Translations under genes and position numbers: made by a program
Part shown: positions 41,988-64,000 of the stretch, piece by piece
Position numbering within the stretch: position 1 is the stretch's first letter
Layout of the letters: every line of letters starts with the position of its first letter
IMG/VR virus record: IMGVR_UViG_3300012983_000036
Span: 36,896 to 100,895 of that record
Reading direction: 5' to 3' (one strand)
DNA from: a virus
Lineage: Duplodnaviria; Caudoviricetes
Length of the DNA: 64,000 nt
Notes under the pieces: model-generated
What the model was told of the DNA's origin: nothing
Seen by the model: only the letters and a program-made list of their open reading frames with translations
Database searches by the model: none

Positions 41988-42000
41988 TAGGAGATAAATT

Positions 42001-42390: not shown

Positions 42391-42395
42391 TTAGT

Positions 42396-42433
42396 ATAAA
42401 GTCAGTAGCTATTTAAGCTACTGACTTTATTTT
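42396..42433 (+). terminator. intrinsic terminator
   Basis: ATAAAGTCAGTAGCT/AGCTACTGACTTTAT. Confidence 0.75.
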
Positions 42434-42451
42434 AAATTAGGAGAATTATTT

Positions 42452-43249: not shown

Positions 43250-43270
43250 CAGAATGGGTGATATAAATTT

Positions 43271-44857
43271 ATGAGTACTAAAATGATAGTATCACAATTA
43301 GTCACTAGTGTGGATGGATTAGCTTATGATACATCTGCATTAAATTATAATAAATACTCATCCAGAAACGGCAATGCTATAACGCGCATAACAATACACC
43401 ATTGCGCTGGTGTTATGAATGACCTAAATTCAATGCGTAGTTGTATAAGAAATCCATCCAGAGAAATGTCCTGCAATTATTTTATAACAAATTCAGGTAC
43501 TATTTACTGTATGCTGCCTGAAAATTTCCGGGCTTGGACTTCGTCTAACGGTGCAAATGATCGTAGAGCTATAACTATAGAAGTTTCTAATTCTGCAGTA
43601 AATGACAGCTGGCCTGTCTCTAATGAAGCCATGTCTGCACTTATTTCATTATGCACAGACATTTGTAGACGATATGGTATTGTATTAGTGGCAACAGGTA
43701 ATGCAAATACTGACACCTTGACTCGACATAATATGTTCACAAGTACTACATGTCCTGGTCCATTTTTACAAAGTCGCTTTGAAACTATCGCAACAATGGT
43801 GAATAATAAGGCAAAAGAATCTGGGTATTATTCGGCAGAAGAGATACGAACTCTACTAAGTACAATAACAGATAGTAAGTTTTCTCTTGATACTGTTTTG
43901 TTAGGACAAACTTATATAGCACCATTAGAAATATCTAATCCAATGATTGACTCACTTAAATTATCTAATAAAACATATAAGTATGATTTAAAAGTTACTG
44001 GTACAGTAAACCGGAACACCTCAGACTTAAAAATAATTTTATTTGACCAAGATGGAAAGACTATAGAAACGCTTTCGATAGAGGGTAGTAATCTAGAAAA
44101 TCTTTCAGATGGCGGTGATGAGGGCTCAACTGAGGATTTAGATGACCTTGGTGCTGCTTCTGAAGACGCTGTATCGACACTTTATTTAAATACTTTTAGT
44201 TTTGAAGGCAGCTTTAATAACTTAGAATTAGATACTACTTATAAAATACAGTTTCAAGGTGCCGGTGCAGCAGGGGGTTCAAATGAAGAAGTCGTACAGT
44301 CAGCTATTGTGCAGTTTAAAACACCTCAGTCTTACCCTAAACCAGTAACTAATTTAGTGTTACACCGAGATTATGATATTGAGAAGGATCTAACTTCGCC
44401 TGATAAACCTTTTAAAGCCTATTTTAAATTACCTGCATCAAGCTTTTGGGGAGCTTGGCCAAATAGAACAGATGTTACCTGTACTAAGGGTTATACCTTA
44501 ATGCTTTTTGTTAATAATAAAGTAGTTGCTTCTAGAGAGGTTGACCTTGGATCTACTTATGCTTTGGAAGTTGATTTTTCTTTTATACCCAAGCGTTTTA
44601 AGCTTACAGAGAGCCAACAAAAAATTGATTATCGTTGTATGCACAGAGACACTATTCAAATAGGCATTCAAACTTGGGTACGTATTAAATCCAAAGGTAA
44701 CACAGTTAAAGTAGCCAATTCTCAGGAAATTCTTAGAACTAACCCAATTATTTTATGTCCAGAAACATTAATAACTGATAGACTATACAGAATAGCTAAT
44801 AAACAGATTAGTAAAATACTTATTCAAAACTTTATAATCCCGAGGTGGTCGCGTTAA
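43271..44857 (+). CDS. N-acetylmuramoyl-L-alanine amidase (Amidase_2) with beta-rich C-terminal domains
   Basis: ITIHHCAG, SCNYFI, RAWTSS..ND.RAITIEV, H..F..T.CPG. Confidence 0.88.
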   Translation: MSTKMIVSQLVTSVDGLAYDTSALNYNKYSSRNGNAITRITIHHCAGVMNDLNSMRSCIRNPSREMSCNYFITNSGTIYCMLPENFRAWTSSNGANDRRAITIEVSNSAVNDSWPVSNEAMSALISLCTDICRRYGIVLVATGNANTDTLTRHNMFTSTTCPGPFLQSRFETIATMVNNKAKESGYYSAEEIRTLLSTITDSKFSLDTVLLGQTYIAPLEISNPMIDSLKLSNKTYKYDLKVTGTVNRNTSDLKIILFDQDGKTIETLSIEGSNLENLSDGGDEGSTEDLDDLGAASEDAVSTLYLNTFSFEGSFNNLELDTTYKIQFQGAGAAGGSNEEVVQSAIVQFKTPQSYPKPVTNLVLHRDYDIEKDLTSPDKPFKAYFKLPASSFWGAWPNRTDVTCTKGYTLMLFVNNKVVASREVDLGSTYALEVDFSFIPKRFKLTESQQKIDYRCMHRDTIQIGIQTWVRIKSKGNTVKVANSQEILRTNPIILCPETLITDRLYRIANKQISKILIQNFIIPRWSR

Positions 44858-46645
44858 ATGACAAAAGAAGAAATTCAGAAATACGTTTGTAATTTTTTGC
44901 TTACTAAACAGCTACCTATGGAGTCTGTTTGTGCTGTTATGGGAAATATTACCGGTGAGAGTAGCTGGGATGTGAATGCAATCGAACACGGTAGTGGTAT
45001 TGGGTTCGGTCTTTGCCAGTGGTCTTATGACAGAAGAAAACAGATAGAGGCTTATGGAGTATCTCTGCAACACCAATGTGAATTTTTGTGGAGTGAGCTA
45101 TCGGGTGAAAATTGTAAATTAACTGGCGCGGACCCTCAGTGGATAGCAAACTCAGACTGTGCCAGAGAAAACGGCTTTGTTTCAGACTTTTCATTACAGT
45201 CATTCCTAACTGCTAATTATTCAGGTTCCCAATATACCTGGCCTGCCTCAGATCCGATTAAAAAGGTAGAAGAGCTAACAAAAGCCTTTTGCTACTGTTG
45301 GGAGCGCCCTGGTACTCCACATATAAATAGAAGAATAAACTCAGCTAAAGAGTTTTTTGAAACTTTTGCAGGTTTATCTTTTACTCCTCGAACAAAAGCC
45401 CCTAGTAGTACAGCTAAATATTGGCGACACGTTTCTGTAGGAGGAGTTAATGAGTGTATACATATAGCAAATGGTTCTGTACTCCCTAATTGTGTTGGTT
45501 ATGCTTGGGGACGTGCATATGAAATAATGCAAGTGAAACCTACCCTTTCAAGAAATAATGCTGGAAAATGGTTTGGTAATACTGCAGACGGCTACCAACG
45601 AGGAAATGTTCCACAACTTGGTGCTATTATGTGTTGTTCTTCTAAAACAGGGGGAGCTGGTCATGTATCTGTGGTAGAAGAGATAATAAAGGATGCTAGT
45701 GGTAATATAACAAGTATAAGAACATCAAATAGTGCTTATAATGGAACTCGTTTTTATATGTCCACCTTATCTTGGCCGTATAGTTCATCTAGTTATACTT
45801 TTCAAGGTTTTATTTATCTTCCTAATATTAGAGGCACCACTGCGGGCGGTTTAGGTGTTCAACAAAGTAAACCTACAATTTTAAAATATGAAACGGTAAA
45901 TACTTCACCACAAAAGTTAGAAACTACAATTGTTTTTAGATCAAATGCTTCTCAAATTTCTAGTATTGAATATTTATTAGCAACGGAAGAAGACTTACTA
46001 AACAGTACACTTGTGACCGATGGAAAGCCTACTGAGGGTTTTTGGAACCAGCGAAAAGGCTCTGTGGCCCTAAATGCTGATGAAGATGGGTTAGAGGACA
46101 GAAGTACTATTAAATTTGAAGTCTCTAACTTAATTCCAAATTCATACTATACTTTTTGGTGTCGAATTAAATATTCGGTAAACGGCGCTGCAGACCTAAT
46201 AAATTTTAATAAAGTTTATTTTAAATCTAAGCAGGCTTTGCCAGAGTCGGTTGCTGATATTAAGTTAAAGTCTTTGCAAAGACCGCTAGCTAGCAACGCC
46301 TTTAATTACTCTTTTACATTGCCCTCTAAAAATGCTTATGGCTATTGGGCAAAGCAAAACAAGGACTGTGGCTACTCTGTCTATCTTGTATCGAACGGTA
46401 AACATCGACTTCTATATGAAGAAAAATGTACGCCTGGTACTACAGTCTCTAATTCTATTATTCCACGCCTGCACGGCTTGAAATTTACTGATAACTTTCA
46501 AATAGGTGTTTCTACTTGGGTGGCTTTAGGAGAAAAAGAGACAGACTATCTATTTGATTGTGATTTTCCAAAATGTTCAAATTCAATATGTTTAAGAGAT
46601 AATATTTTTGATATCTATTTAAGCAAAGATTTAATTCAAAAATAA
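44858..46645 (+). CDS. phage tail lysozyme + CHAP peptidase with beta-rich C-terminal domains
   Basis: MGNITGES..GFGLCQWS..WERPG; PNCVGYAWGR..GHVSVVE..SNS. Confidence 0.88.
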   Translation: MTKEEIQKYVCNFLLTKQLPMESVCAVMGNITGESSWDVNAIEHGSGIGFGLCQWSYDRRKQIEAYGVSLQHQCEFLWSELSGENCKLTGADPQWIANSDCARENGFVSDFSLQSFLTANYSGSQYTWPASDPIKKVEELTKAFCYCWERPGTPHINRRINSAKEFFETFAGLSFTPRTKAPSSTAKYWRHVSVGGVNECIHIANGSVLPNCVGYAWGRAYEIMQVKPTLSRNNAGKWFGNTADGYQRGNVPQLGAIMCCSSKTGGAGHVSVVEEIIKDASGNITSIRTSNSAYNGTRFYMSTLSWPYSSSSYTFQGFIYLPNIRGTTAGGLGVQQSKPTILKYETVNTSPQKLETTIVFRSNASQISSIEYLLATEEDLLNSTLVTDGKPTEGFWNQRKGSVALNADEDGLEDRSTIKFEVSNLIPNSYYTFWCRIKYSVNGAADLINFNKVYFKSKQALPESVADIKLKSLQRPLASNAFNYSFTLPSKNAYGYWAKQNKDCGYSVYLVSNGKHRLLYEEKCTPGTTVSNSIIPRLHGLKFTDNFQIGVSTWVALGEKETDYLFDCDFPKCSNSICLRDNIFDIYLSKDLIQK

Positions 46646-48017: not shown

Positions 48018-50225
48018 ATGAGAACTCTTGTGATTTTGCGTGGAGCTCCTGGTGCAGGAAAGTCTACTTGGATTAGAGAGCACAATCTTGAAGCTTATAC
48101 CCTCTGTCCAGATGAAATTCGTTTACTTTGCAGCTCTTATGAGTTAAAAGCTGATGGTACATATGCAATAGCTCATAATCAGGAAGTAGAAAATCAAACT
48201 TGGAAAACACTATTTAATCTTTTAGAGTTTAGAATGTCTAGAGGCGAGTTTACAATTATTGACGGTACAGCTTCAAAGACAAAAGATATTCAGCAATATA
48301 AAGAGTTAGCTAGTCAGTATCGCTACAGAATGTATTGTGTTGATTTTTCAGATGTGCCTCTTGAAACTTGTATAAAACAAAATAAGCAGAGACCAGAATA
48401 TAAGTGGGTACCGAATGAAGCTATTGAAAATATTTATGCTCGGTTTGCAACTCAAAAAGTTCCTGCTGGTGTTCCTGTTCTTAAACCTGATGAATTTGAA
48501 CAACTTCTTGAAACACCTTTTGATATGTCAGACTATAAAAAAATTGTTTTTATTGGTGATATTCATGGTTGTTATGATACCTTAATGCAGTATTTTAAAG
48601 AAGGTCTTGACCCAGAAGTTGCCTATATCTTTTTAGGTGACTACTTCGATCGAGGAAATCAAAATGCTGAAGTATTAAATTGGCTTTATTCTATTATGGA
48701 TAAGCCAAATGTATGTTTACTTGAAGGCAATCATGAAAGACATTTAAGAAACTATGGAAATGATTCTCCCTCAGTTTCTAGAGTGTTTGAAAATCAGACA
48801 AAGCCGCAATTGATTAACGGCGGTTTTGATGCTAAAAAAGCTAGAATGTTTTACCGTAAACTAAGACAGATGTCTCATTTTACTTATAACGGGCTTGAAG
48901 TTTTGGCATGCCATGGTGGTATACCCTCTTTAAAGAAAAATTTGCTTTATTTACCAGCTTCTGGTTTTATAAAAGGTATTGGTGACTATAAGGATTATTT
49001 TACTATTGCCGAGACTTGGACACGTGAAACTGCTGAAAATGCTTATCTTATTCATGGGCATCGTAATACTGAAAAGCACGAAACACAAATTGCTGATAGA
49101 GTATTTAATCTTGAAGGTGCTGTTGAAATGGGCGGTCAGCTTAGAATAGTTGAGCTTAACCAGGATTGTACCTGGAATATCATAGAGATAAATAATTGTC
49201 AACCTATCACAGAAGATACAAATACTGAAGAATTTAGAATTGAAACAATTGAACAGGCAGTTCAGTACCTACGTAAAAATAAATTTGTGCAGGAAAAATG
49301 CTTAGGTGAAGGTGTATCTTCTTTTAACTTTACCCGTGAAGCGTTTTACAGTCATAATTGGAATAGCCAAACAATCCTTGCTAGAGGTCTTTTTATCGAT
49401 ACTGAAGAAAATAAGATTATGGCACGTTCGTATGAAAAATTTTTCAGAATTAATGAGGTTAGAGAAACCGAGTTTATAGCTTTAAAAGAAAAATTACAAT
49501 TTCCTGTAAAAGCTTGGCTAAAAGAAAATGGATTTTTGGGAATTGTCTCTTATGACTATAAAAAAGATAATTTATTTATAGCGTCTAAATCTACAAATAA
49601 AGGTGACTATGTAGGATATTTTACTGAATTATTAGCTCCTTATAGAGATTCTATTTTAAGTCTTCTTAGAAGCTACTACAACTGTGATCATCCAGTTACA
49701 CTAGTATTTGAAGTTAAAGACATTGAACATGACCCGCATATTATTCAGTATGATGCTAGCGAAATAGTTTTATTAGATATTATTAAAAATACTCTTCAAT
49801 ATCAGTCACTAGATGAAGAAGTTTTAAATGAGGTTGGAACAATTATAGGATGTTCGGTAAAGCAAAAAGCTTATGTTCTAAATACTTGGGAAGACTTTAG
49901 AGCTTTGTATATGCAAGCTCAAGATGAAAATTATCAGTATAATGATGAGTATATTGAAGGCTTTGTTTTTGAAGATGCCTCTGGTTTTATGACTAAGTGT
50001 AAAACAGGCTATTATAATCTTTGGAAAAAACTTAGAGGTGTTTGTGACCAAACTTTACGTTGTGGTTATATTACTCGTACTGGGATGTTAACTTCAGCAT
50101 TAGAGAATTATTTTTATGGTTTTTGTAGAGGGCTTTATCAAAAAGATAGAGATAAAGAAACAAAAACATATCCTTATAAAACCGACATTATTTCTATAAG
50201 AGAAAAATTCTTATTCGGTAACTAA
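48018..50225 (+). CDS. trifunctional RNA repair enzyme: polynucleotide kinase + metallophosphoesterase + RNA ligase
   Basis: RGAPGAGKST; GDIHG, GDYFDRG, GNHE, HGG, HGH; ARGLF..YEKFF, KENG, FE, EGFV, KCK. Confidence 0.9.
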   Translation: MRTLVILRGAPGAGKSTWIREHNLEAYTLCPDEIRLLCSSYELKADGTYAIAHNQEVENQTWKTLFNLLEFRMSRGEFTIIDGTASKTKDIQQYKELASQYRYRMYCVDFSDVPLETCIKQNKQRPEYKWVPNEAIENIYARFATQKVPAGVPVLKPDEFEQLLETPFDMSDYKKIVFIGDIHGCYDTLMQYFKEGLDPEVAYIFLGDYFDRGNQNAEVLNWLYSIMDKPNVCLLEGNHERHLRNYGNDSPSVSRVFENQTKPQLINGGFDAKKARMFYRKLRQMSHFTYNGLEVLACHGGIPSLKKNLLYLPASGFIKGIGDYKDYFTIAETWTRETAENAYLIHGHRNTEKHETQIADRVFNLEGAVEMGGQLRIVELNQDCTWNIIEINNCQPITEDTNTEEFRIETIEQAVQYLRKNKFVQEKCLGEGVSSFNFTREAFYSHNWNSQTILARGLFIDTEENKIMARSYEKFFRINEVRETEFIALKEKLQFPVKAWLKENGFLGIVSYDYKKDNLFIASKSTNKGDYVGYFTELLAPYRDSILSLLRSYYNCDHPVTLVFEVKDIEHDPHIIQYDASEIVLLDIIKNTLQYQSLDEEVLNEVGTIIGCSVKQKAYVLNTWEDFRALYMQAQDENYQYNDEYIEGFVFEDASGFMTKCKTGYYNLWKKLRGVCDQTLRCGYITRTGMLTSALENYFYGFCRGLYQKDRDKETKTYPYKTDIISIREKFLFGN

Positions 50226-53197: not shown

Positions 53198-56100
53198 ATG
53201 TCAATTAAAATTTTAGATACTTTTGAGCCTGCTGGCGAATTTGAGCTAGCAGAAGCAAAAGATATTGCGTACTCAGGCTCATATGTAGATGAACAAAATC
53301 AGAAACAATCTCTACATGAAGTTGATACAGCTTTAGATATTTTATTTAATCGAGTTTTCGCTGAGCCTAAATTAAAATATGCGTCTACAGATGTGGATGC
53401 AGAAATAGCTCCAGCAATTCCTTCAGAACCTGTTGCATTTGGGGACCAACTGTCACTAGCTTTTTATATTGATACCCCTTCGCTAGGTCAGTGTACTGTA
53501 ACAGTATATCGTAAAATAAACGGCTCAGAGTCCAACTATAAGTTTGTGCAGTCACAACAGGTGAATAAAGGTGTGGTAGTTATACAGCTAGGCTCCTTCA
53601 GAGACTATGCTGACTATCTATACAAAGTAGAAGTTACCGATGGTGCCGGCAAAATTGCATTAACTCCTTGGGGTACTAATTTCTTAGAATTTAGACGTTA
53701 TTGTAACAGTATAAGCTTTTCAGCCATTCAGTCTGACGATGAAAAACGTAAACTGTTTACTTTGGACGAACAAGAGTATCCATATGAATTCACTTATAAA
53801 ATTGGACAGCTAAATAGCTATGGATATTTGCTATATAAGTTTTTCGAGCCTAACATTGAAATTCCTACAAGTATTTCAACTGAAACATTAGATCAATGGG
53901 AACAAATTAGTTTAAATTCAGATAGCCCTTTATTAGTAGGTCAAGGTATTACAGATAACCGCTGCTTAGCATTACCTAAGACCTCTGCAAGTGGTACACA
54001 TGTTTTAGCTACATGCTTAGTTTTATCAACAACACCTGAGTTAACTACAAATTCTGAAATTATAACTTCGGCTATTTTAAAAAGAAACATTGACCGTTTA
54101 ACTTCAGAAACTTTGGCGGTTGTAGCAACAAAGGCTTTAGACCTACGTGTATCTACACGTGAGACTTGTCAGTTAAGCTTTATTGCAAAAACAACAATTC
54201 CTTCGTTAGCTAACTTTACTAATACAATAAAATTAACAGGTACTTTGTACCATGAAGCTTTAAATGGTAATGGTTCTCATTGTTTTTGTAAAATTTGTAA
54301 TAGAGTTTTTGATAATTCTGCAGAAACCGTCTGTGACTGCGCTGATATAAATAAAGTACAATTAACCGTAAATACAACCAAAAATTATGACGAAACCGTA
54401 ACACATGGTATAGAAGCCCCTTTATGGAATTTATATAGAATAGAGTGGCCATTGGATAAACTAGACCCTCATACTGAGTTAAGGAGTTTAGTTGAAGTTA
54501 AAGCTCGCCCTGTTGGTGATGTGCCAGTAGAAAATACTTTAAATTATTATCAATTATTTGAATTAGAAAAAGCATCAACAGAATCTCTTTATCGTACTGA
54601 TGATTTATTATTTAATTTTGATACTATAGCAGACGCGGGTATCGCAGGTCAGCCGGACTTTATTGCTGGTACTCTTATCCCCGACACAATAGCAGCCCAA
54701 GTTTCAAATACTAGATGGAATGACTCAGAGGGTAGCACACAGCTAGGTTTAAAATTATTTAATAGTATTAAGGGCCAAACAGGTGTTATTGAAAGTACTG
54801 AACAAAACGATCCTGTTGCTAGATTAAACTTATCTTATAATACTTATGCAGTTATGTACAAAAAGGCTGCAGATGGTACTTTAAATCCTTATTCTCCGTG
54901 GACAGAGCTTGCGTCAAATGTAGAAGCAGGACACAATAAACCTGCTTTTTCCATTGAAGCTTATTTTCGTAATACTTATATTGGTGATAAAGATTCAGCT
55001 ATAATTACGCTAATGAATAAGACAGGTAGCGCAGATGGTTTCTTTATCGATAATGAAAAAGCCTATATAAAACTGAAAGGACAGGAAGAGGCTCAGGTTG
55101 CTTTTTCAAGAGACTCCTGGCATCACATTGTAGCGGTCTTTGATTCTAATCCAAACGTTGATATTAATGGTAATATGTCAGGTATTACCGATCAGGAAGA
55201 TATAAATCCTTATCCAACTATTCGCATATACCTTGATGGTACCCTAGTAGCTGTTAATAAAATTGATACGGCTTCCTGGTCTAGCATTCACTCAGCTATT
55301 AAAGATATGCCACCTCTTATTATTAATGGTGAGATGGCAGAAAATAGTCTTAATTTTGTAGAGCCGGCTCTGTCAGTAGATTCACTTGAAGTAATAAATA
55401 CTGGTAAGTGCGATCTTAAAGTTTTACGTGTATACAAGGCAGCTTTAACTTCCAAGGATGTATATTGTAACTATCTATACACAAGAGAAGAAGAGGAAGC
55501 AGCCATAGTAGAAAACCGAAATACAGACGGATTACCTAAAATTTTCTTTATTAAAAATAAACTATCCCCTGAAAATGTTGTAGGTGCTTCTGAAGAAGAT
55601 GAGGCACGTTGGGCTGACTATAATGCAAAATATAAGCTTAATGACAAAAAAACTTGGACTAAAAAGTTAAATCCTACTACATTTACCGATTTGCATAGTA
55701 TTACAGAAAAAAATACTGTATTGGATTCTAATGATAATATTAAACATGGTTCTAAAACTTCTCTTGTAAACTGCTCTATGTATGCATGTATGCCTAATCC
55801 AGACAATCCTAATGAACTACTTTGGTCAGCTGTAGAAACTGATGTTGATGTTTATTTACAGGGTACATCTTCACTTGCATATCCAGTTAAAAACTATCAA
55901 ATAAAAGTAAAACAGATGAATAGAGCTTCCGATGGTGCCCCTCTAACACGTAGTAAAAAAGAAATTTTACCACCTTTCCAGAGTGACCAGACCGGTTGGC
56001 ACACTGCAGGCAGTGTTTATACCTTGAAGTGTGACTTTATGGAGCATTCACACAGAAATAATACTCCAACAGCTAGTTATTATCAAGATGCTGTTTTAGA

Positions 56101-59100
56101 TAGTGTCATCGCTGCTTATCATAAGTATAGCACAGATAATACTGAAGCTATTGCTAAACATTATAGTCCCGCTCGTAGCATTAGAACAGAAATAAGTACT
56201 AGTGAAAATCCAGAACCCACGTCTATCTACAGAGATGCGATAGCAGGTTTTCCATGTGTTGTTTACTACTCAGATAATACTGAGTTAGACTTAAAGGCTC
56301 TTAAAACTACTGTAAGATTTGAGGATTTACCCGGACTGAGTTATGCGGGCTCTTATATGTTTAATGTAGATAAAGAAGGTAAACAGCTAGGATTTGAAAT
56401 TAGTGGTGCTGAGGTTAACTATGAGCATTCTGCCTTCAGTGAAGCTGATAAAAGCCTTATAAAAAATGATCAAGATGTAAGGCTCTCTTGTATTTCATAT
56501 GAAGGTAGTGCAAATACTGACGAGCATGCCGCAGCTTTTGTACCTTTTGTTGAAGCCTTCGCTGATGAGATAGCTCAATATTACGCAGCTTTAATTAGAG
56601 GCGATACAGAAGTTCTTGTATTATTTGAAAAGTCTCAAGGTAAATCATTTAATGATCCAGAAATTGCAGATGATGTAAAAACACTTACCTCATTTACTGA
56701 AAAAATAAAAGATGGTACTTATACATTGTGGGTATATACCTATGATGAAAAAAAGGAAGAATCAGAATGGAAACCTTTTACTAGATATTCATATCTCGAA
56801 GCAACGCTCTCCCCTAGATTTTCTTCTGTGGATGAAGACAACCTAGAAGAAACTTATGATTCTATTGAAAGGGCCATAAACTGGATTAGTAGTGCTAAAA
56901 GTGACACACAAAAGTTTAAAGCAAACTTTGAAAAATACTTTAGCTTAGAATATTGTTTAGCCTACTATTTACAAATGCTATTATTTGCTCAGGTAGATAA
57001 TGCAGGTAAAAATGCTATGTTTGATATTTGGAAATGTCCTGGCGTGCCTACAACAGATTATCCAGCTGATTCTAAATTTAATAAATTATATCCACGTCCA
57101 TATGATATGGATACCCAGATGGGACTTAATAACTCCGGTGAGGATAAAATTCCTGAAATAGTAGAACTTAATCAAGTATTGTCTCCTTACAGCTTTACTG
57201 GAGAACTAGTAAATGCGGGTTATATACAAGCAAGTAACATTATCAGTAACTGGAATACTGTGGTAGCTAATCAGCATTCCAATAGATATCAGTATAATAC
57301 TTCAAACTCAAATCTTTGGAAAACTTTTGGTACGGTTTATAGAGATGAAATTGCTACTATATACAAAGCATTACGTCGACAGGGAATATATAGCGTTGAT
57401 GCAATTTGCAACTATGTAGACAAGATGACATCAAATGTTATTGGTGAACGTTTCTATAACAGAGATGCCGCCGCGAAGTATCTGAATTATAAGTCTGCAA
57501 AAGAGGTTACTAATGAGGATGGCTCTACGAGTACACTTGAGGGTGAATATGAATATAATTCTAGGTACCTTTATTGTATAAGTGGTAATAGAAAAAACCG
57601 TTATAGAGACTTTTTAACTGCTCGTATTACTTTCTTAGATTCTTTCTTTGATTATAATACTGCAAATAAAACAGAGTTACGTATTGGCTATATCCCAGGT
57701 GACCAGTATGATGAAGCAAATAAAATCGGAGGTACACAAGAATTTACAGGTAATACTAGGTGTGTGGCTTGTGGTATTCGTGTTCATAGACCGCAATATA
57801 TTACTATTACTGTACAATCAGTAAACTTATCCTTAAAAACACTAGTTACTCCAGAAGACTCTTATATATTCCATGGTGAATTACATCCAGGTGTGCTTAT
57901 ATGGCTTCCTGCACTTTCTGATGCTGGTGATGCAGAAGTTATAATAAGTGGTGGTGCTAATATTGCTGGGCTAGACCATTTACATTATGCTAACCCAACT
58001 AAATGTCTGTTAGATCTGTGCGCCGGACTAACCGAGCTTGATTTGACTGACTGTGCGAAGCTTAGTAATTTAACTTTAAGTCCTAATGGTTATTTACGTA
58101 AGTTTATTTTTGATGATGCAGGCGCATTAGACTCAGAGCGCAACTTAACTATTGATTTATCGGCCTGCAAAGACTTAGTTGAAGTTTCTGCAAAAAATTC
58201 TAAAATTACTTCTTTACTCCTACCTGCCCGTTCAAGTTTAACAAAACTTGATTTAACAAAAACAAATATAGAAGCCTTAGAAGTACAAGGAACGGCTCAC
58301 TTAACTGTAGATAAACTTAAATTAACTGAATGTACTCGCTTAAAAGAATTAACTATTAAAAATTGTCCTAAAATTTTAATAGAAGATGATATGAGTATCA
58401 CTGATAAAAAAGTGAAAACAGCTTTTGATAAATTAATTCCACATGGTCAGCTTCGAAAATTAATATTAGAAAATTGTGATGGTATCACAAAATTAAATTT
58501 ACATGGTTCAAATAATCTTACTTTTTTATCTTTAAAGTTGCCTAGTTTATTATCATTATCTCTAGTAAATACAGTAGCCCCAATTTTTGATTTTGCTTGG
58601 GATAGTACAGAATATACGGGATTAGATTTAAATGACCTAACGAGTTTAATCTATTTAAATCTTAAATCAACGGGCGGCTCAAGCAGTGCTAACAAATTTG
58701 GTCTTGTGCGTTTACCTAATGAAGCTAAGATTGAAACATTATACATTAATGAATCAACTATTAAGTCATTAGCTGTTACTGGTAATGAAATAGCTGAAGG
58801 CCTATATGATTTCAGTTCAATGGCAAATCTTAAGTCACTATCAATTACAAAGAATACGGCCGTAAATAGAATTAAAAAGCTCACATATTGTACCACGTCA
58901 ACAAGTACATTCAGTGGATGTAGCAATTTAGTGAGTTTTGATAATGAGTGTAGATTGACTATAGAAACAGATTGCGCAGCTAGTACTTTTAGTAGCTGTT
59001 CTGCGCTTGAAGAAATTCCAGATCATGTTCTGTCTTTTGAATCTCAAAGTGGCCTTAAAGGTAATGGTTTCTTTTATGGCTGTGGTCAATTGTCAGCAGA

Positions 59101-62100
59101 AACACTTGCTCGAACAGCTAAGTTACTAGTGGCTGCAAATTGTCCAGATTTTACTTTATATGCTTATGGTAATAATAAATTAATAAACATACCATATGAT
59201 TTCTTTGGAGTAGATACTGAAAAACTAAAACTAGTTAAAGTACTTACTAGCTGTTTTCGTTCTTGCTCTAACTTAACTACTTTAGATTTAACTCCTATTA
59301 CAGTAGAAGCAGTAGGTGAAAATGAAGTTAGCTCAGTTTATGCTCACGCATTTACTAATATGACTGGTGTTCAAGATGTAAATGCGCTTTTCTCGGAATG
59401 CACCAAACTAGAATTCGTTCCTTCTACTATTTTTGAAGAAATGACTCAGTTAAAAAATGCTGCTTATACTTTTTATAATTGTGTGAACCTTGGCAGTAAT
59501 GCTGAGAATAAAAGTAACTGTATTCTTAGTAATTATACTATTGTTGGGGAAACTACAAACTATAATTCTCATGTATTTAATAAAGTAGCTCCAGTAGAGA
59601 CAATAGAAAGCATGTTTAATGGCTGTAAGAACTTAGAAGTAAATGATGGTCTCAAAGGTTTCTTTGAAGACCTACAAACGTTAGTACGTGGTTCTTTAGC
59701 ATTCTACAAGTGCTCTAAAATAAATGGTTTAGCTGCCAATATTTTAACAGATTTGACTTTACTTGAGAATATAGATGGTATGTTTGCCGGTACAATGTCT
59801 GATGGTATTGATACTACTCTTCCATTGATTTTTGGTGATGGTACTACCACAATGACAGCATTACGGTCAGCTCGTGGTCTATTTAGCGGATGTAAAAATT
59901 TAACTGGTTCTATCCCAAATGGCTTTTTCACTTCGTTAACAGGTTTGGTAAATGTAGGAAGTGGTACTTATGTTCCAATACTGCAAAGTAGTTTTGGAAA
60001 CGTAACTCTTGGTGGTTTATTTATGAATACCAAAATTACAAGTCTTCCATATAATTTATTTAATAATAGTACATCCTTAAAATCATGTAGTAAGCTAATT
60101 TGTAACGTAGATACTAAAGGTAATATTATTGAAAATACTGTCTTTGAAGGATTTACCGATGTTGATGATTCTACTATACTTCCACAAGTTCCGTTAAATT
60201 TCTTTAATGCAAATACTACCACACCTACTATGGAGAGCATTGAATATGCTTTTGCTGGCTGTACAAAAGTTAAAACTATACAAGGTTCAATATCAACTGA
60301 TCCCGAAGATGATTTATCAATTTTACCCAAGTCTTTAAAAACTGCTCGTGGAACATTTATGCTAAGTGGAATAGAGAGCTTACCTTCAAATCTGTTTAAA
60401 AATAAAGATAACCTTAGTAATATTGCATATATGTTTGCTAATTGTACAAACTTACGTAGTGTTGAATTTTCTAGTTTATTTGCAGGCTGTAAGAGCTTAT
60501 CTAATTGTAGTAGTCTATTCTTTCAAGATGCATCACTAGCATATGGAGGCATTATTCCAGCTACCTTGTTTAATAGCTGTAGAGGTTCTCTTACAAATGT
60601 TTCATATATGTTTGCAGGTTGTACTAGTCTTAGTGGCAGTATAGGAGTTGGAACAGCTACAGTTAATGATTTAACAGCACTGGACGCAGCACACAAACTC
60701 TACTGTGAAAACATTGCAAAAGGCCTTATAAATCAAACTAACAAAAGTCTTGATAGTAAAGTTAAAGAGGCAATTAATGCTAGATTAGATGTAGAACCTG
60801 ATACAAGTATAGAATCTCTAGGTGTACTTGCCGAAAATACCGCAAAAGCTGTTATTCTTAATGAATTAAGTATTAAAAACTTTAATGTGTCTGATACAAT
60901 ATTTGAAAGCAATATAGTAGAAAAGCATGCTAACTATAGCCTTACCTTGACAATTAAAGGCACAACAGCTGAAATTACCTATTCAAAATACAAGTTTGCT
61001 GATTATGATAACAATAATTGGCAAGAACTTTTTGCAGCAGCTTCAGACGTATATAGCTTAGAAAACTATATTAAAGACCCTAGTCATAAAATTGTAAATA
61101 TTAATCAGTATGGTTTATTAGCTAATTGTACTCAACTAAGTTCAGTTACAGGCATGTTCTTGAATTGTAGTAATTTAACGGGCCCAATTCCTGCTGATAT
61201 GTTCTATGGAGATAAAAATCTACCGGTAGCACTATCATCTATTGCCTACTTGTTTGCTGGTTGTACTCGCATGTGTACAGCTCCTTTAAAAACAGGAGAT
61301 ATTACATCAGAATATCCGTGTACTTTTGAAAAACCAACCGACATGGCGCTTGAGCATTATATTGCTGGAAACTTCTGTAATGTATATCCACACTTCTATA
61401 AATATCAAGATAACTATATTATAATGGAAGAAAATGGTATAGATGAAGGTGAAATTTTCAGAGATAGCTGTGCTAGATACTTTGTGCCTGTAGATTGGTT
61501 AGCTAAAGCTCCGTATATCACAGATATACGCTATGCTTTTAGCCGAATAGGTATAAGTAACTTAAATACCTTATCTTATTCTAACTATATTGCTTTCAAT
61601 ACAAATGCGACAATTATTGAGCGTATACCTTTACAGCTGAAAATACCAGTAAAATTATTTGATTATAATATTAGTAATCCTTTAAGGATTAATAAAGCAA
61701 ATGGAGCTTTTTACTTCAATGCTTCTATAGGAAATAGTGTACTTACTCGTGCATTTATGGCTGAAAGCGTTAAAAATAATCTTACAGATATTTCTTATAT
61801 GTTTGCTTTATCTTCACTTCCTGCAATTACTGATGGTACTTCTAAATTTTTAGAATCTACTTTTGCCAATTCTATATTAAATAATGTTACAGGTGCATTT
61901 GCATTTACTAATAGCCTATCCTTTGCTACTGCAATTAACTCAGACACAGAAAATAAAAAACCGGTCTATGATTGGTTAATTGGAAATAACTATGGTGACT
62001 TTATTTTACATACTAGTGATGTAACTGGCTTGGCTGATCAAGAAGTAGTAGATTTCACAAATAATTTTAATAATATTACTTCAAAGGATAGGGCATTTAG

Positions 62101-62332
62101 AAATACTTACTCATTAACTACAGATAAGACTGCATTCACTTCATGTAAAGTACCATCACCTTATGATGCCTGCCTTATAAGTGAAGATGGTTCTACCTCG
62201 AACTATTATGTTTATGTTAGACCAGCTAATGATGCACAATCATCATATTCTAGCATCGGTACTAATGTAGAAAATAATGTTTTAAGTGATCAGTTAAAAA
62301 CTATTTTAGCAGTAATATATGAAACAGCCTGA
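53198..62332 (+). CDS. 3044-aa giant: LamG-like + CotH kinase-like + LRR + BspA-like LRR
   Basis: FSIEAYF..WHHIVAV..IYLDG..LRVY..AL; LQGTSS.YPVKNY, LKCDFMEHSH.NN, DNAGKN, PYDMDTQMG; LxxLDLxxC; MFxxCxxL repeats. Confidence 0.85.
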   Translation: MSIKILDTFEPAGEFELAEAKDIAYSGSYVDEQNQKQSLHEVDTALDILFNRVFAEPKLKYASTDVDAEIAPAIPSEPVAFGDQLSLAFYIDTPSLGQCTVTVYRKINGSESNYKFVQSQQVNKGVVVIQLGSFRDYADYLYKVEVTDGAGKIALTPWGTNFLEFRRYCNSISFSAIQSDDEKRKLFTLDEQEYPYEFTYKIGQLNSYGYLLYKFFEPNIEIPTSISTETLDQWEQISLNSDSPLLVGQGITDNRCLALPKTSASGTHVLATCLVLSTTPELTTNSEIITSAILKRNIDRLTSETLAVVATKALDLRVSTRETCQLSFIAKTTIPSLANFTNTIKLTGTLYHEALNGNGSHCFCKICNRVFDNSAETVCDCADINKVQLTVNTTKNYDETVTHGIEAPLWNLYRIEWPLDKLDPHTELRSLVEVKARPVGDVPVENTLNYYQLFELEKASTESLYRTDDLLFNFDTIADAGIAGQPDFIAGTLIPDTIAAQVSNTRWNDSEGSTQLGLKLFNSIKGQTGVIESTEQNDPVARLNLSYNTYAVMYKKAADGTLNPYSPWTELASNVEAGHNKPAFSIEAYFRNTYIGDKDSAIITLMNKTGSADGFFIDNEKAYIKLKGQEEAQVAFSRDSWHHIVAVFDSNPNVDINGNMSGITDQEDINPYPTIRIYLDGTLVAVNKIDTASWSSIHSAIKDMPPLIINGEMAENSLNFVEPALSVDSLEVINTGKCDLKVLRVYKAALTSKDVYCNYLYTREEEEAAIVENRNTDGLPKIFFIKNKLSPENVVGASEEDEARWADYNAKYKLNDKKTWTKKLNPTTFTDLHSITEKNTVLDSNDNIKHGSKTSLVNCSMYACMPNPDNPNELLWSAVETDVDVYLQGTSSLAYPVKNYQIKVKQMNRASDGAPLTRSKKEILPPFQSDQTGWHTAGSVYTLKCDFMEHSHRNNTPTASYYQDAVLDSVIAAYHKYSTDNTEAIAKHYSPARSIRTEISTSENPEPTSIYRDAIAGFPCVVYYSDNTELDLKALKTTVRFEDLPGLSYAGSYMFNVDKEGKQLGFEISGAEVNYEHSAFSEADKSLIKNDQDVRLSCISYEGSANTDEHAAAFVPFVEAFADEIAQYYAALIRGDTEVLVLFEKSQGKSFNDPEIADDVKTLTSFTEKIKDGTYTLWVYTYDEKKEESEWKPFTRYSYLEATLSPRFSSVDEDNLEETYDSIERAINWISSAKSDTQKFKANFEKYFSLEYCLAYYLQMLLFAQVDNAGKNAMFDIWKCPGVPTTDYPADSKFNKLYPRPYDMDTQMGLNNSGEDKIPEIVELNQVLSPYSFTGELVNAGYIQASNIISNWNTVVANQHSNRYQYNTSNSNLWKTFGTVYRDEIATIYKALRRQGIYSVDAICNYVDKMTSNVIGERFYNRDAAAKYLNYKSAKEVTNEDGSTSTLEGEYEYNSRYLYCISGNRKNRYRDFLTARITFLDSFFDYNTANKTELRIGYIPGDQYDEANKIGGTQEFTGNTRCVACGIRVHRPQYITITVQSVNLSLKTLVTPEDSYIFHGELHPGVLIWLPALSDAGDAEVIISGGANIAGLDHLHYANPTKCLLDLCAGLTELDLTDCAKLSNLTLSPNGYLRKFIFDDAGALDSERNLTIDLSACKDLVEVSAKNSKITSLLLPARSSLTKLDLTKTNIEALEVQGTAHLTVDKLKLTECTRLKELTIKNCPKILIEDDMSITDKKVKTAFDKLIPHGQLRKLILENCDGITKLNLHGSNNLTFLSLKLPSLLSLSLVNTVAPIFDFAWDSTEYTGLDLNDLTSLIYLNLKSTGGSSSANKFGLVRLPNEAKIETLYINESTIKSLAVTGNEIAEGLYDFSSMANLKSLSITKNTAVNRIKKLTYCTTSTSTFSGCSNLVSFDNECRLTIETDCAASTFSSCSALEEIPDHVLSFESQSGLKGNGFFYGCGQLSAETLARTAKLLVAANCPDFTLYAYGNNKLINIPYDFFGVDTEKLKLVKVLTSCFRSCSNLTTLDLTPITVEAVGENEVSSVYAHAFTNMTGVQDVNALFSECTKLEFVPSTIFEEMTQLKNAAYTFYNCVNLGSNAENKSNCILSNYTIVGETTNYNSHVFNKVAPVETIESMFNGCKNLEVNDGLKGFFEDLQTLVRGSLAFYKCSKINGLAANILTDLTLLENIDGMFAGTMSDGIDTTLPLIFGDGTTTMTALRSARGLFSGCKNLTGSIPNGFFTSLTGLVNVGSGTYVPILQSSFGNVTLGGLFMNTKITSLPYNLFNNSTSLKSCSKLICNVDTKGNIIENTVFEGFTDVDDSTILPQVPLNFFNANTTTPTMESIEYAFAGCTKVKTIQGSISTDPEDDLSILPKSLKTARGTFMLSGIESLPSNLFKNKDNLSNIAYMFANCTNLRSVEFSSLFAGCKSLSNCSSLFFQDASLAYGGIIPATLFNSCRGSLTNVSYMFAGCTSLSGSIGVGTATVNDLTALDAAHKLYCENIAKGLINQTNKSLDSKVKEAINARLDVEPDTSIESLGVLAENTAKAVILNELSIKNFNVSDTIFESNIVEKHANYSLTLTIKGTTAEITYSKYKFADYDNNNWQELFAAASDVYSLENYIKDPSHKIVNINQYGLLANCTQLSSVTGMFLNCSNLTGPIPADMFYGDKNLPVALSSIAYLFAGCTRMCTAPLKTGDITSEYPCTFEKPTDMALEHYIAGNFCNVYPHFYKYQDNYIIMEENGIDEGEIFRDSCARYFVPVDWLAKAPYITDIRYAFSRIGISNLNTLSYSNYIAFNTNATIIERIPLQLKIPVKLFDYNISNPLRINKANGAFYFNASIGNSVLTRAFMAESVKNNLTDISYMFALSSLPAITDGTSKFLESTFANSILNNVTGAFAFTNSLSFATAINSDTENKKPVYDWLIGNNYGDFILHTSDVTGLADQEVVDFTNNFNNITSKDRAFRNTYSLTTDKTAFTSCKVPSPYDACLISEDGSTSNYYVYVRPANDAQSSYSSIGTNVENNVLSDQLKTILAVIYETA

Positions 62333-62352
62333 TAAAGATAAAACTAAAAATG

Positions 62353-62475
62353 TTTTATAAATTTTATAAAATAAAATTATATATAATAAATAATATATAA
62401 TTATTTAAATTATAATATATTTATTTATATAAATATAGATTTTATAAAAATATAAATATAAATTTTATAAAATTT
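62353..62475. other. extreme AT tract with four TTTTATAAA copies
   Basis: About 123 nt with a single G; repeats at 62353, 62362, 62440, 62463. Confidence 0.8.
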
Positions 62476-62496
62476 GAAATTTTTAAAATTTAATAC

Positions 62497-62505
62497 TGTA
62501 TAATA
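62497..62505 (+). promoter_or_regulatory. class A promoter-like motif ahead of the ncRNA array and downstream gene
   Basis: TGTATAATA ending 6 nt before the first stem. Confidence 0.6.
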
Positions 62506-62511
62506 AAATGT

Positions 62512-62581
62512 GATTAATTTCGAGCCAATACTTATTTCGAACAATTTTAATAGGTAAAATAGTAGTTTGGCCTTATTAATC
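62512..62581 (+). ncRNA. structured repeat unit 1
   Basis: GATTAAT/ATTAATC base; G-(A)-GCCAA-(T)-ACT-TATTTC-25 nt-AGT-TTGGC-C. Confidence 0.7.
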
Positions 62582-62582
62582 T

Positions 62583-62663
62583 TAAAAATTAGAGCTTATG
62601 CTTATTTCCTTAGATGAGATTTGTCACTCTCAAATGACTTTAGAAAGCTAAGCCTAATATTTA
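62583..62663 (+). ncRNA. structured repeat unit 2
   Basis: ATTA/TAAT base; G-(A)-GCTTA-(T)-GCT-TATTTC-37 nt-AGC-TAAGC-C. Confidence 0.7.
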
Positions 62664-62756
62664 TAAAAGTATAATATTTTAAGAGACTGTACTTATTTCT
62701 TATTTCGTTCCAAAAATTACGATGTTAAGAGTCAGTTCAAAATATTATACTTTTAT
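62663..62756 (+). ncRNA. structured repeat unit 3
   Basis: 18-bp perfect base ATAAAAGTATAATATTTT/AAAATATTATACTTTTAT; G-(A)-GACTG-(T)-ACT-TATTTC-30 nt-AGT-CAGTT-C. Confidence 0.7.
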
Positions 62757-62785
62757 TATATTAAATTTTTAAGGAGATTATTATT

Positions 62786-64000
62786 ATGCAGTTTGATTTT
62801 AATGTAAATTCAAGATTGAGAAATATTTTAACTCTTCGTCATTTTCTTGTAAGTACCTCTGAGCAGGAGGCTGTTACAGAAAAAACAAAATTTTATAATG
62901 CTTATTTACTTGCTAACTTTGGTATTGTGGTAGATAAACCTTATTTGTTAACAAGTGATATGATTAAAGATATTTCTGAAGTTTTCAAATTAGAAGTTCC
63001 TAAATCTTTTTATGCAAATCCACAGGATACTCAGTATTTTACAAAAGAAGAACTTATTATTGAACAGATTGTTTCTTATTTTGCTTATGCTACTGACCTT
63101 GGTCGAATTGAAATATTTAAGAAGGACCTTCCTGAATACTTTGTAGGTGATGAGGTTAAGCTAAGAACTTTTACAATTTTAAATGTTGAAGAAGCTTACC
63201 AGCAACTTGAAAATATTTTAAAATCTTATTGTTCTTATACTCGTCCTTTTTCTATAGATGAGCTCGAAGAGTTTACAGCTCTTTATTATGCAGGCCTTCT
63301 TACTAATGAAGGTCTTCTTAAAGAAAATTTTGAAATTAAATGCAAAGATAATATTTTTACCCTTCTTAAATCTGACATTGCTTTTGCAAGATTTTTAGAT
63401 AAAAAGGATATTGTAAAGCTTTCTATTCAGAAATTTGGAGATAATGCTTGTTTTAAGCAGTGTTTTGGTGATTCCCGTAGAATGGCTGTTATTAAGCCTC
63501 AGCTTGAAGAAATTGCTTCTTATATTCCTTATGTAAAACATTGTCCAATGTCTAAGAAGCAAGCTAAATATTATAATAAAATTGTTTCTGTTTGTCGTAA
63601 GGCTGTTCCTAACTGTACTCTTAAAGTAACTAATGAAACAAATGCGCAGTCCCCTGATAGACGTGCTCTTAAATTCCTTGCAGAAGGTGATGTATTAGGA
63701 GCTGCGAGAATTTATGCTTCAAGTGGTTCAATGCTTGAAAGACGTATTAAAATGCTTCTTTCAAGGGCAAATCCTAGAGAAGCTATTGAAATTCTTGATA
63801 TGCTTCCTGCAAAAAATTCAATTGTTCTTTTTCAGACTATTAATAATATTGTATCGGATACAGGTGAGTCTAGAACCTTTACTTTCTATCATGATAATAA
63901 AGTAAAAACTCATCGTGAGACTGACTATGAAACAACTTGGAGAAAATCAAAACTTAATGATTCTACAAGAAAGCTTTTAAAGGATACTTGTATAGACAAG
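62786..64000 (+). CDS. 3'-truncated large alpha-helical protein, resembling TerD-fused / MXAN_6230-SCO0854-like family; not in ORF track
   Basis: AAGGAG RBS; 405 open codons to window end (MQFDFNVNSRLRNILTLRH...); SFYANPQ..EELIIEQIVSYF and GDVLGAARIYASSGSMLERRIKMLL resemble that family from memory. Confidence 0.75.
   Translation, partial: MQFDFNVNSRLRNILTLRHFLVSTSEQEAVTEKTKFYNAYLLANFGIVVDKPYLLTSDMIKDISEVFKLEVPKSFYANPQDTQYFTKEELIIEQIVSYFAYATDLGRIEIFKKDLPEYFVGDEVKLRTFTILNVEEAYQQLENILKSYCSYTRPFSIDELEEFTALYYAGLLTNEGLLKENFEIKCKDNIFTLLKSDIAFARFLDKKDIVKLSIQKFGDNACFKQCFGDSRRMAVIKPQLEEIASYIPYVKHCPMSKKQAKYYNKIVSVCRKAVPNCTLKVTNETNAQSPDRRALKFLAEGDVLGAARIYASSGSMLERRIKMLLSRANPREAIEILDMLPAKNSIVLFQTINNIVSDTGESRTFTFYHDNKVKTHRETDYETTWRKSKLNDSTRKLLKDTCIDK

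What the first reader, a model, noticed from the sequence alone, without database searches (positions are those of the whole stretch)
62497..64000. Candidate undescribed RNP system: tandem array of three covarying bulged-helix ncRNAs placed ahead of a large helical protein
Seen in sequence: three consecutive hairpins (62512-62581, 62583-62663, 62663-62756) share one architecture. Each has an AU-rich basal stem, a G-C pair, a bulged A, a 5-bp helix, a bulged U, a 3-bp helix, invariant UAUUUC, then a variable insert (25, 37, 30 nt) with its own small hairpin. The 5-bp helix differs in every unit yet always pairs (GCCAA/TTGGC, GCTTA/TAAGC, GACTG/CAGTT), and the 3-bp helix covaries (ACT/AGT vs GCT/AGC). 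Compensatory change like this argues for selection on RNA structure rather than on a DNA operator. A promoter motif ends 6 nt before unit 1, and an RBS plus a long ORF follow unit 3. The layout is neither CRISPR (no identical repeats) nor tRNA. Established analogy: Ro60/Rsr binds Y RNAs through a bulged helix and is encoded beside them, often with RNA-repair genes. Inference: the downstream protein binds each unit's conserved scaffold while the variable insert acts as guide, decoy or adaptor. Alternatively the array is an autoregulatory multi-site leader.
Basis: partly seen in the sequence, partly recalled or inferred. Interest (0 to 1): 0.9.

Follow-up and report, generated by a model that had tools for sequence, protein, structure and literature searches.

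The report
Y-RNA-like handle RNAs, TerD-domain partner
Three small folded RNAs in front of an unstudied phage gene belong to a widespread RNA family, absent from Rfam, that travels with that one protein family in phages and gut bacteria, so the pair probably forms an undescribed RNA-protein particle built like Ro60 with its Y RNAs.

Summary
Window 62512-62756 holds three tandem hairpins with one "handle": G-C pair, bulged A, variable 5-bp helix, bulged U, RCU/AGY helix, invariant UAUUUC, then a variable insert.

A related phage (62% protein identity) has the same three units before the homologous gene, with compensatory changes. The handle recurs in every related jumbo-phage record I examined. 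In those phages it encloses small hairpins, anticodon-arm look-alikes, one true tRNA, or a circularly permuted tRNA-like body. That body matches Rfam YrlA below threshold.

The downstream ORF is cut by the contig end and is about 665 aa in relatives. It has a helical N-terminal half and a TerD-fold C-terminal domain, with no TROVE or vWA. Homologues down to 27-34% identity carry the same RNA motif upstream, including about 60 of 76 bacterial loci. No other gene is conserved beside the pair.

Best reading: an RNA-protein module analogous to Ro60/Y RNA with a different handle and protein. Binding and function are inferred, not shown.

I found no published description and no Rfam family. This scan has already met the same pair on other genomes and reached the same reading.

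The parts
62497..62504 (+). Extended -10 promoter box TGTATAAT. The predicted start is about 62510-62512, at the foot of unit 1.
   Evidence: Read. The 15-mer TTAATACTGTATAAT is identical in the related phage L005. TGTATAAT also sits 6-10 nt before the handle of many stand-alone units in other phages. The consensus scan alone is uninformative in this AT-rich DNA.
62512..62581 (+). Handle RNA unit 1. It has a 7-bp basal stem. The handle is G-A-GCCAA-U-ACU-UAUUUC (62522-62538), the insert is 25 nt, and the closing strand is AGU-UUGGC-C (62564-62572).
   Evidence: The covariance model R1 scores it 54.5 bits, but it was in the training set. The orthologous unit in L005 keeps the handle with a different 36-nt insert.
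62583..62663 (+). Handle RNA unit 2. The handle is G-A-GCUUA-U-GCU-UAUUUC (62592-62608), the insert is 37 nt, and the closing strand is AGC-UAAGC-C (62646-62654).
   Evidence: The orthologue in L005 has GUCUA/UAGAC instead, which is two compensated pair changes.
62663..62756 (+). Handle RNA unit 3. It has an 18-bp AU basal stem. The handle is G-A-GACUG-U-ACU-UAUUUC (62683-62699), the insert is 30 nt, and the closing strand is AGU-CAGUU-C (62730-62738).
   Evidence: The orthologue in L005 has AACUG/CAGUU, so a G-U pair has become A-U.
62771..62776 (+). Shine-Dalgarno sequence AAGGAG, 9 nt before the ATG.
   Evidence: Read.
62786..64000 (+). The first 405 codons of the partner protein gene, cut by the contig end. 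Relatives are about 650-700 aa, with an alpha-helical N-terminal half and a TerD-fold C-terminal domain. The C-terminal domain lies beyond the window.
   Evidence: One search gives the open-ended ORF. One search shows the window ends at the contig end. Searches give full-length homologues at 51-62% identity. One search gives 1203 cluster representatives at E<=1e-3. AF2 models reach pLDDT 93 for full-length L005 and 90 for the window's part. The TerD fold scores Z 14.0. There are no Pfam hits. The PHROG is phrog_33734, unknown function.

Best explanation
The three units are small non-coding RNAs of one family. They are transcribed from the TGTATAAT promoter at 62497-62504. Each consists of a conserved 'handle' and a free-evolving apical insert.

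The handle is formed by the 5' and 3' parts of the unit. It contains a G-C pair, a bulged A, a 5-bp helix of any sequence, a bulged U, an RCU/AGY helix and a 6-nt single-stranded UAUUUC.

The handle is most likely the binding site of the protein encoded just downstream (helical N-terminal half plus TerD-fold domain). RNA and protein would then form a particle built on the plan of Ro60 with Y RNAs: one protein, several RNAs that share the protein-binding stem, and variable modules that face outward.

In sister RNAs that module is a YrlA-type tRNA mimic, an anticodon-arm look-alike or a real tRNA. This points to a role with tRNA-handling enzymes or tRNA-cutting nucleases. The window's own three units carry only small hairpins.

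Shown here: the fold, its covariation, the family, and the conserved RNA-protein gene linkage across phages and bacteria.

Inferred, not shown: transcription and processing into separate RNAs, direct binding, and any function.
For: (1) The structure is under selection. The handle pairs covary. There are about 19 different 5-bp helices in phages, all paired. Orthologous units in the window and L005 differ by compensated changes.

(2) Gene linkage starting from the protein. Units lie directly upstream of the homologue in L005, G002, G003, G004 and G005. They also lie upstream of homologues of only 27-34% identity in unrelated, even GC-rich, DNA: L138-L142, with six tandem units in L142. Among bacterial loci, 61 of 76 have 1-4 units. 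In those loci, 113 of 143 TAYTTC sites upstream have a perfect 8-bp partner, against 4 of 23 inside the gene.

(3) Gene linkage starting from the RNA. Of 11 phage records carrying handle RNAs, 10 encode the protein. These comprise the window's own contig, two records first reached through the protein, and eight found by DNA pattern alone. The exception is an 11%-complete fragment.

(4) No other gene is conserved next to the pair in 80 bacterial loci, so RNA plus protein is the unit of inheritance.

(5) The RNAs are not only leaders.
- In the complete 223-kb genome G003, 5 of 7 units sit in the tRNA array about 90 kb from the gene.
- Many units have their own TGTATAAT box 6-10 nt before the handle.
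- In L141 a hairpin-plus-T-run separates the RNA from the gene.

(6) Kinship with Y RNAs. Units with about 85-nt cargo hold a T arm, a closed acceptor hairpin and a D arm in YrlA order. They hit RF02553 at 32-53 bits, with E down to 2.6e-9.

(7) The protein has a large helical-repeat domain with several invariant arginines: R148, R301, R345 and R440 in L005 numbering.
Against: - There is no expression, processing or binding data.
- The protein has no recognised RNA-binding domain. TerD domains are known for Ca2+ or possible nucleotide-derivative binding, not RNA.
- In this window all three units lie between the promoter and the ORF, with no recognisable terminator. Here they could act simply as a leader.
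- Fifteen of 76 bacterial loci showed no unit under my strict perfect-pair rule.
- The short inserts of the window's units are not conserved between close relatives, so they may have no specific target.
Confidence: 0.6

Rival explanations
1. The array is an autoregulatory leader. The units are cis-acting operator sites in the 5' UTR of the protein's own mRNA. The protein binds them to set its own translation or mRNA stability, as ribosomal-protein leaders do.
For: In the window, and in most loci, the units lie on the gene's strand, 25-450 nt upstream of its start. No terminator is detected between unit 3 and the ORF. This reading is compatible with the particle reading; both could hold.
Against: Units also lie downstream of the gene and in distant tRNA arrays with their own promoters. 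Some are followed by a terminator before the gene (L141). Elaborate tRNA-like cargo serves no purpose in an operator.
Confidence: 0.15
2. The pair is a type III toxin-antitoxin-like or defence / counter-defence module. The tandem RNAs hold the protein inactive until infection or stress changes the RNA level.
For: The layout is promoter, tandem structured RNA units, then a protein gene. The module is self-contained with no conserved neighbours and sits in varied bacterial contexts and phages. A MazE-like gene lies near one homologue.
Against: The units are not near-identical repeats as in ToxI. The protein is 650-730 aa with no nuclease or other toxic domain detected. I did not scan PADLOC.
Confidence: 0.08
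3. The handle is a processing or stability cassette read by a host RNase or by tRNA-maturation enzymes. It releases or protects small RNAs and tRNAs, and its position next to the protein gene is incidental.
For: Handles enclose a true tRNA-Arg(UCU) in G003 and lie inside tRNA arrays. A long stem with bulges resembles RNase III sites.
Against: It does not explain why the motif tracks one protein family across Bacillota, Chloroflexota and phages while no other gene is conserved. It also does not explain the invariant single-stranded UAYUUC.
Confidence: 0.07
4. The units are true Y RNAs (YrlA/YrlB) that work with the host's Ro60/Rsr, acting for example as decoys. The phage protein is unrelated to them.
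For: The tRNA-like cargo matches the YrlA architecture and reaches 32-53 bits. TROVE proteins exist in some possible host groups: the control search rings in Bacteroides thetaiotaomicron.
Against: No TROVE was found in 4 of 5 bacterial genomes that carry the module, nor in any phage record, including two 91-100% complete ones. The Rsr-binding motif GNCGAAN0-1G (PMC4201824) is replaced by UAYUUC. All scores are below Rfam's gathering score.
Confidence: 0.05

Closest known systems
Ro60/Rsr (TROVE + vWA) with Y RNAs, especially bacterial and phage YrlA/YrlB (Rfam RF02553; Chen et al. 2014, PMC4201824; phage phiLo Ro60, PMC12135203, PDB 9l5y)
   Same: Several small RNAs are encoded beside one large, partly helical protein. 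The RNA ends pair into a bulged stem that carries the conserved motif. A variable or tRNA-mimicking module sits at the far end. Sister units have the same permuted order: T arm, closed acceptor, D arm. The pair occurs in phages and, in some, near RNA-repair genes.
   Different: There is no TROVE or vWA domain. The C-terminal domain is a TerD beta-sandwich. The handle is UAYUUC with an RYU/ARY helix, not GNCGAAN0-1G. Scores against RF02553 are below its gathering score. The window's own units have no tRNA-like domain. Units often come in tandem arrays of up to six.
TerD-family proteins (tellurite-resistance TerD/TerE/TerZ; PDB 2qz7, 2kxt, 3ibz)
   Same: The C-terminal roughly 160 residues adopt the TerD fold (Z 14.0, rmsd 2.3 over 145 residues). 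A GD..G.E-type acidic motif is conserved.
   Different: TerD proteins are about 190-aa stand-alone proteins in ter operons with no known RNA partner. Here the domain follows a 400-aa helical domain, and the gene is paired with structured RNAs. No ter genes lie nearby.
MXAN_6230/SCO0854 family RING domain-containing protein (NCBIfam NF041916)
   Same: There is partial sequence similarity over the end of the helical region plus the TerD-like domain (71-108 bits over profile positions 383-712; 39 bits for the most distant homologue, P0041). The Atlas structural search gives TM 0.73.
   Different: The score is far below the family cut-off of 600 bits. The phage and Clostridia proteins have no RING domain. 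I did not examine whether that family has RNA partners.
Type III toxin-antitoxin loci (ToxIN and relatives)
   Same: A promoter is followed by tandem structured RNA units and then a protein gene. The module is compact and mobile.
   Different: ToxI repeats are near-identical 34-36-mers cut by a small endoribonuclease toxin. Here the units share only the handle, and the protein is large with no nuclease fold detected.

Membership tests
YrlA Y RNA (Rfam RF02553) | Covariance-model score at or above the gathering score of 69 bits | tested here: not met
   The window's units give no hit at E<=10. Sister units with tRNA-like cargo score 32-53 bits.
YrlA Y RNA (Rfam RF02553) | tRNA-like domain: T arm, closed acceptor-like stem, D arm | tested here: not met
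   It is absent from the three window units, whose inserts are 25, 37 and 30 nt. It is present in sister units of related phages and bacteria.
YrlA Y RNA (Rfam RF02553) | Rsr-binding motif GNCGAAN0-1G near the 5' end (PMC4201824) | tested here: not met
   The corresponding position holds the invariant UAUUUC. In the Rfam alignment, UUUCUAAUGC aligns to cggCgaAUGC.
YrlA Y RNA (Rfam RF02553) | Encoded within a few kb of a Ro60/Rsr (TROVE) gene | tested here: not met
   PF05731 was not found in the window's contig or in five related phage records, two of them 91-100% complete. Of five bacterial genomes with the module, one has a separate TROVE-like gene elsewhere.
Ro60/Rsr (TROVE) proteins | TROVE domain detectable by sequence | tested here: not met
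   Pfam gives no hit for the window's ORF, the full-length L005 protein or nine distant homologues. A profile of 66 members finds no Ro60 chain in the PDB at E<=1.
Ro60/Rsr (TROVE) proteins | Ring of HEAT-like repeats | tested here: inconclusive
   The N-terminal model is all helical repeats. Its longest structural alignment is to phage phiLo Ro60 (9l5y_B), but only at Z 4.8 and rmsd 6.5 over 208 residues, within the noise for helical proteins. Foldseek gives nothing at E<=0.001.
Ro60/Rsr (TROVE) proteins | C-terminal vWA domain with MIDAS | tested here: not met
   The C-terminal domain is a TerD-type beta-sandwich.
TerD domain family | TerD beta-sandwich fold | tested here: met
   This was tested on the full-length homologue L005. 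Foldseek gives E 2e-5 to 2kxt and 3ibz. VIA gives Z 14.0 to 2qz7_B and 11.9 to 2kxt. This part of the gene lies beyond the window's end.
TerD domain family | Pfam TerD (PF02342) sequence match | tested here: not met
   There is no Pfam hit at E<=1.
CRISPR array | Near-identical direct repeats separated by unique spacers | tested here: not met
   The units share only about 13 fixed bases, and each 5-bp helix differs.
tRNA genes | Cloverleaf recognised by ARAGORN or Rfam tRNA | tested here: not met
   There are no tRNAs in the window and no Rfam tRNA hit in the region.
Type III toxin-antitoxin (ToxIN-like) | Tandem near-identical RNA repeats plus a small endoribonuclease toxin | tested here: not met
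   The units are not identical. The protein is about 665 aa with no nuclease domain found.

The most novel reading that the evidence does not exclude
A second, independent Ro/Y-like particle exists in bacteria and their phages. A TerD-domain protein unrelated to Ro60 uses a UAYUUC bulged-stem handle to carry interchangeable RNA modules: tRNA mimics, anticodon-arm mimics, even whole tRNAs. Large phages have expanded the RNA set inside their tRNA arrays to intercept or repair damage from host tRNA-targeting nucleases.
Probability: 0.3. Interest if true: 0.9.

Novelty: new variant of a known kind. Interest (0 to 1): 0.78.

Why it matters
Y RNAs with Ro60 are the only well-known case of a protein that carries a set of small RNAs sharing a binding stem and presenting tRNA-like modules. 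Their function in bacteria is still only partly understood.

Here the YrlA-type tRNA mimic appears on a different handle, next to a different protein. That protein family has about 1200 cluster representatives and is spread through rumen and gut Clostridia, Chloroflexota and 200-kb phages.

If the pair forms a particle, three things follow:
- tRNA mimicry on a protein-held scaffold has arisen or been re-partnered more than once.
- A large protein family of unknown function (phrog_33734) gets a first functional handle.
- Phage biologists get a new candidate player in the contest over tRNA cleavage and RNA repair.

The module is compact, one gene plus short RNAs. It occurs in cultured isolates such as Eubacterium ruminantium FB3002 and Lachnospiraceae C6A11 and AC2029, so it is directly testable.

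Tried and rejected
- **tRNA or tmRNA genes:** ARAGORN finds none in the window.
- **Known RNA family:** Rfam at E<=10 gives only noise in 61500-64000. It gives nothing upstream of distant homologues.
- **Close phage relatives in GenBank:** blastn of 62300-64000 finds no match.
- **Permuted tRNA genes matured by cutting and ligation:** I considered this when the T-arm-first order appeared. I rejected it because the bodies lack a normal anticodon loop, match the YrlA architecture, and have an acceptor stem closed by a short loop.
- **Ro60 in disguise:** TROVE searches were negative. Profile-to-PDB was negative. hhalign of the family profile against a TROVE-like protein from one host genome gave probability 0.2. 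The structural match is too weak to count.
- **Intrinsic terminators:** none in 62200-62900.
- **Sigma-70 scan:** not above shuffles in this AT-rich DNA. The promoter call rests on conservation instead.
- **More units in the window:** covariance model R1 with filters off finds only the three.
- **Conserved neighbour genes in bacteria:** none.
- **Scan of bacterial genomes with the 66-sequence alignment:** A single protein was used instead.
- **Literature:** searches for YrlA plus phage, TerD plus tRNA-like, TROVE plus TerD, and SCO0854 gave no description of this pair. Burroughs and Aravind 2016 (NAR 44:8525), which might mention a TROVE-like/TerD protein, is not held and could not be checked.

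Full report
**Setting.** The window is the last 64 kb of a 100.9-kb IMG/VR phage contig rated 45% complete. It is AT-rich and all long ORFs are on the + strand. The finding lies between a 3044-aa gene that ends at 62332 and an ORF that starts at 62786 and runs off the contig end.

The sequence shows three consecutive hairpins built alike: G-C pair, bulged A, 5-bp helix, bulged U, 3-bp RCU/AGY helix, UAUUUC, a 25/37/30-nt insert, then the closing strands.
- The 5-bp helices are GCCAA/UUGGC, GCUUA/UAAGC and GACUG/CAGUU.
- The pattern GAGNNNNTRCTTATTTC matches exactly only at 62522, 62592 and 62683.
- These are the only such sites on the + strand of the whole contig.
- The region folds better than any of 200 shuffles (z = -4.4).
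- Neither ARAGORN nor Rfam recognises anything there.

**Relatives keep the array.** Two IMG/VR contigs encode a homologue of the downstream ORF at 62% identity. Upstream of it, after an identical TTAATACTGTATAAT box, lie the same three units. Unit 2 now has GUCUA/UAGAC, which is two compensated pairs. Unit 3 has AACUG/CAGUU. The inserts are unrelated in sequence and length. That is selection on pairing and on the handle, not on the insert.

**The handle defines a family.** A pattern scan of viral contigs, filtered for the pairing, found the handle in about ten further large-phage contigs. It occurs singly and in arrays of up to five, with about 19 different 5-bp helices.
- On 32 units with short inserts, 6 of 9 pairs change on both sides. 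The covariation score is 0.475, against 0.189 shuffled (0 of 500) and at most 0.119 for slid partners.
- Many units have their own TGTATAAT box 6-10 nt before the handle, so the handle's 5' strand would be the 5' end of the RNA.

**The cargo is informative.** In several units the insert is a T arm, an acceptor stem closed by a short loop (in two units containing CCA) and a D arm, in that permuted order.
- These units hit Rfam YrlA over the full model at 35-41 bits, against a gathering score of 69.
- In that alignment, UUUCUAAUGCUGGG of the phage RNA lies on cggCgaAUGCuuggG of YrlA. This is the region that Chen et al. 2014 (PMC4201824) assign to Rsr binding (GNCGAAN0-1G).
- Other units carry CUUUUAA loops like the tRNA-Lys anticodon loop, two of them with a D arm.
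- One unit in the complete genome G003 encloses an ordinary tRNA-Arg(UCU).
- The window's own units carry only small hairpins.

**The RNA and the protein travel together.**
- Homologues of the ORF in four more phage records all have units immediately upstream: four, two, one and one. Several have more units and tRNA arrays just downstream.
- Going the other way, 10 of 11 phage records with handle RNAs encode the protein. The exception is an 11% fragment.
- The protein family is large: 1203 representatives at E<=1e-3.
- Homologues of 27-34% identity, from unrelated and even GC-rich DNA, carry the motif upstream in all four cases for which DNA was obtained. The form there is YAGCUA-N5-RYU-UAYUUC-cargo-ARY-N5'-RAUAU, with six tandem units in L142.
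- In 80 loci from Lachnospiraceae, Eubacterium, Oscillospiraceae, Chloroflexota and others, 61 of 76 with enough upstream DNA have 1-4 units. Of 143 TAYTTC sites upstream, 113 have a perfect 8-bp partner, against 4 of 23 inside the gene.
- Their cargos of about 85 nt are again YrlA-like, at 32-53 bits.
- No other gene is conserved beside the pair.

**The protein.**
- It has no Pfam family. Its PHROG is of unknown function. It has a weak partial NCBIfam match to RING_SCO0854.
- AF2 gives a confident model (pLDDT 93). Residues 1-400 are helical. Residues 435-594 form a TerD-type sandwich: Foldseek E 2e-5 and VIA Z 14.0.
- The helical half alone (pLDDT 90) has no clear structural relative. Its longest alignment is to phage phiLo Ro60, but at Z 4.8 and rmsd 6.5, which is not evidence.
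- TROVE is absent from the contig and from five related records, two nearly complete. It is also absent from four of five bacterial genomes with the module.
- So the protein is not a recognisable Ro60.

**Interpretation.** The pair behaves as a two-part module. The best-supported reading is a particle in which the protein holds the handle and the cargo faces outward, like Ro60 with Y RNAs.
- Units far from the gene (five of seven in G003 lie in the tRNA array about 90 kb away), own promoters and a terminator between RNA and gene in L141 argue that the RNAs act in trans.
- In this window an additional leader role cannot be excluded, since no terminator separates unit 3 from the ORF.
- The tRNA-like cargos, the tRNA-array setting and a kinase-phosphatase-RNA-ligase gene 12.5 kb upstream suggest tRNA damage or repair as the field of action. 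That is inference only.

**Prior work.** I found no paper or Rfam entry describing the pair. One likely source could not be read. This scan's own notes show the same RNA-protein pair was met on many other genomes, and earlier follow-ups reached the same reading. I formed mine before reading them, and I tested linkage, YrlA likeness and TROVE absence independently here.

Noticed in passing
window 48018-50225 (+): A single 735-aa protein combines a P-loop polynucleotide kinase, a calcineurin-like phosphoesterase and a T4 Rnl1-type RNA ligase (phrog_8238, E 1.7e-209; Pfam AAA_33, Metallophos, RNA_lig_T4_1). It is an RNA heal-and-seal enzyme, 12.5 kb upstream of the handle RNAs.
   Followed up: partly
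window 53198-62332 (+): A 3044-aa giant protein lies just upstream of the array. It has weak CotH-kinase and laminin-G-like matches (E 1.3e-4 and 5e-3, both below Pfam cut-offs).
   Followed up: no
G003:C1:2394-2501 (-), loci L122 and L015: One handle unit (GCUGA/UCAGC) encloses a complete, unpermuted tRNA-Arg(UCU) that ARAGORN calls at 2408-2482. Its counterpart in G002 (L010) holds a degenerate copy with a CCU anticodon arm.
   Followed up: partly
G003:C1:11081-11155 (-): ARAGORN calls a tRNA with anticodon UCA (labelled SeC) in the related complete 223-kb phage genome. This may be an opal suppressor, and so a hint of stop-codon reassignment in this phage group.
   Followed up: no
L212:2306-2412 (+): In a Leptolinea (Chloroflexota) locus the handle's cargo has D arm, anticodon-like arm and T arm in normal tRNA order, unlike the permuted YrlA order seen elsewhere.
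   Followed up: no
L005:6606-6754 (+): The Rfam tRNA match in the related phage's tRNA array has an 80-nt insertion in the anticodon loop. This is possibly an intron-bearing tRNA gene.
   Followed up: no
L223:304-2430 (+) (G010, Candidatus Limivicinus): A 708-aa protein has a partial TROVE match (34.5 bits, profile positions 277-355 only). It is unrelated to the TerD-domain family by hhalign. It sits in a genome that also carries the handle-RNA module.
   Followed up: partly
window 40098-46645 (+): Three adjacent genes have endolysin, amidase or lysozyme-like heads according to PHROGs (phrog_435, phrog_7698 and others).
   Followed up: no
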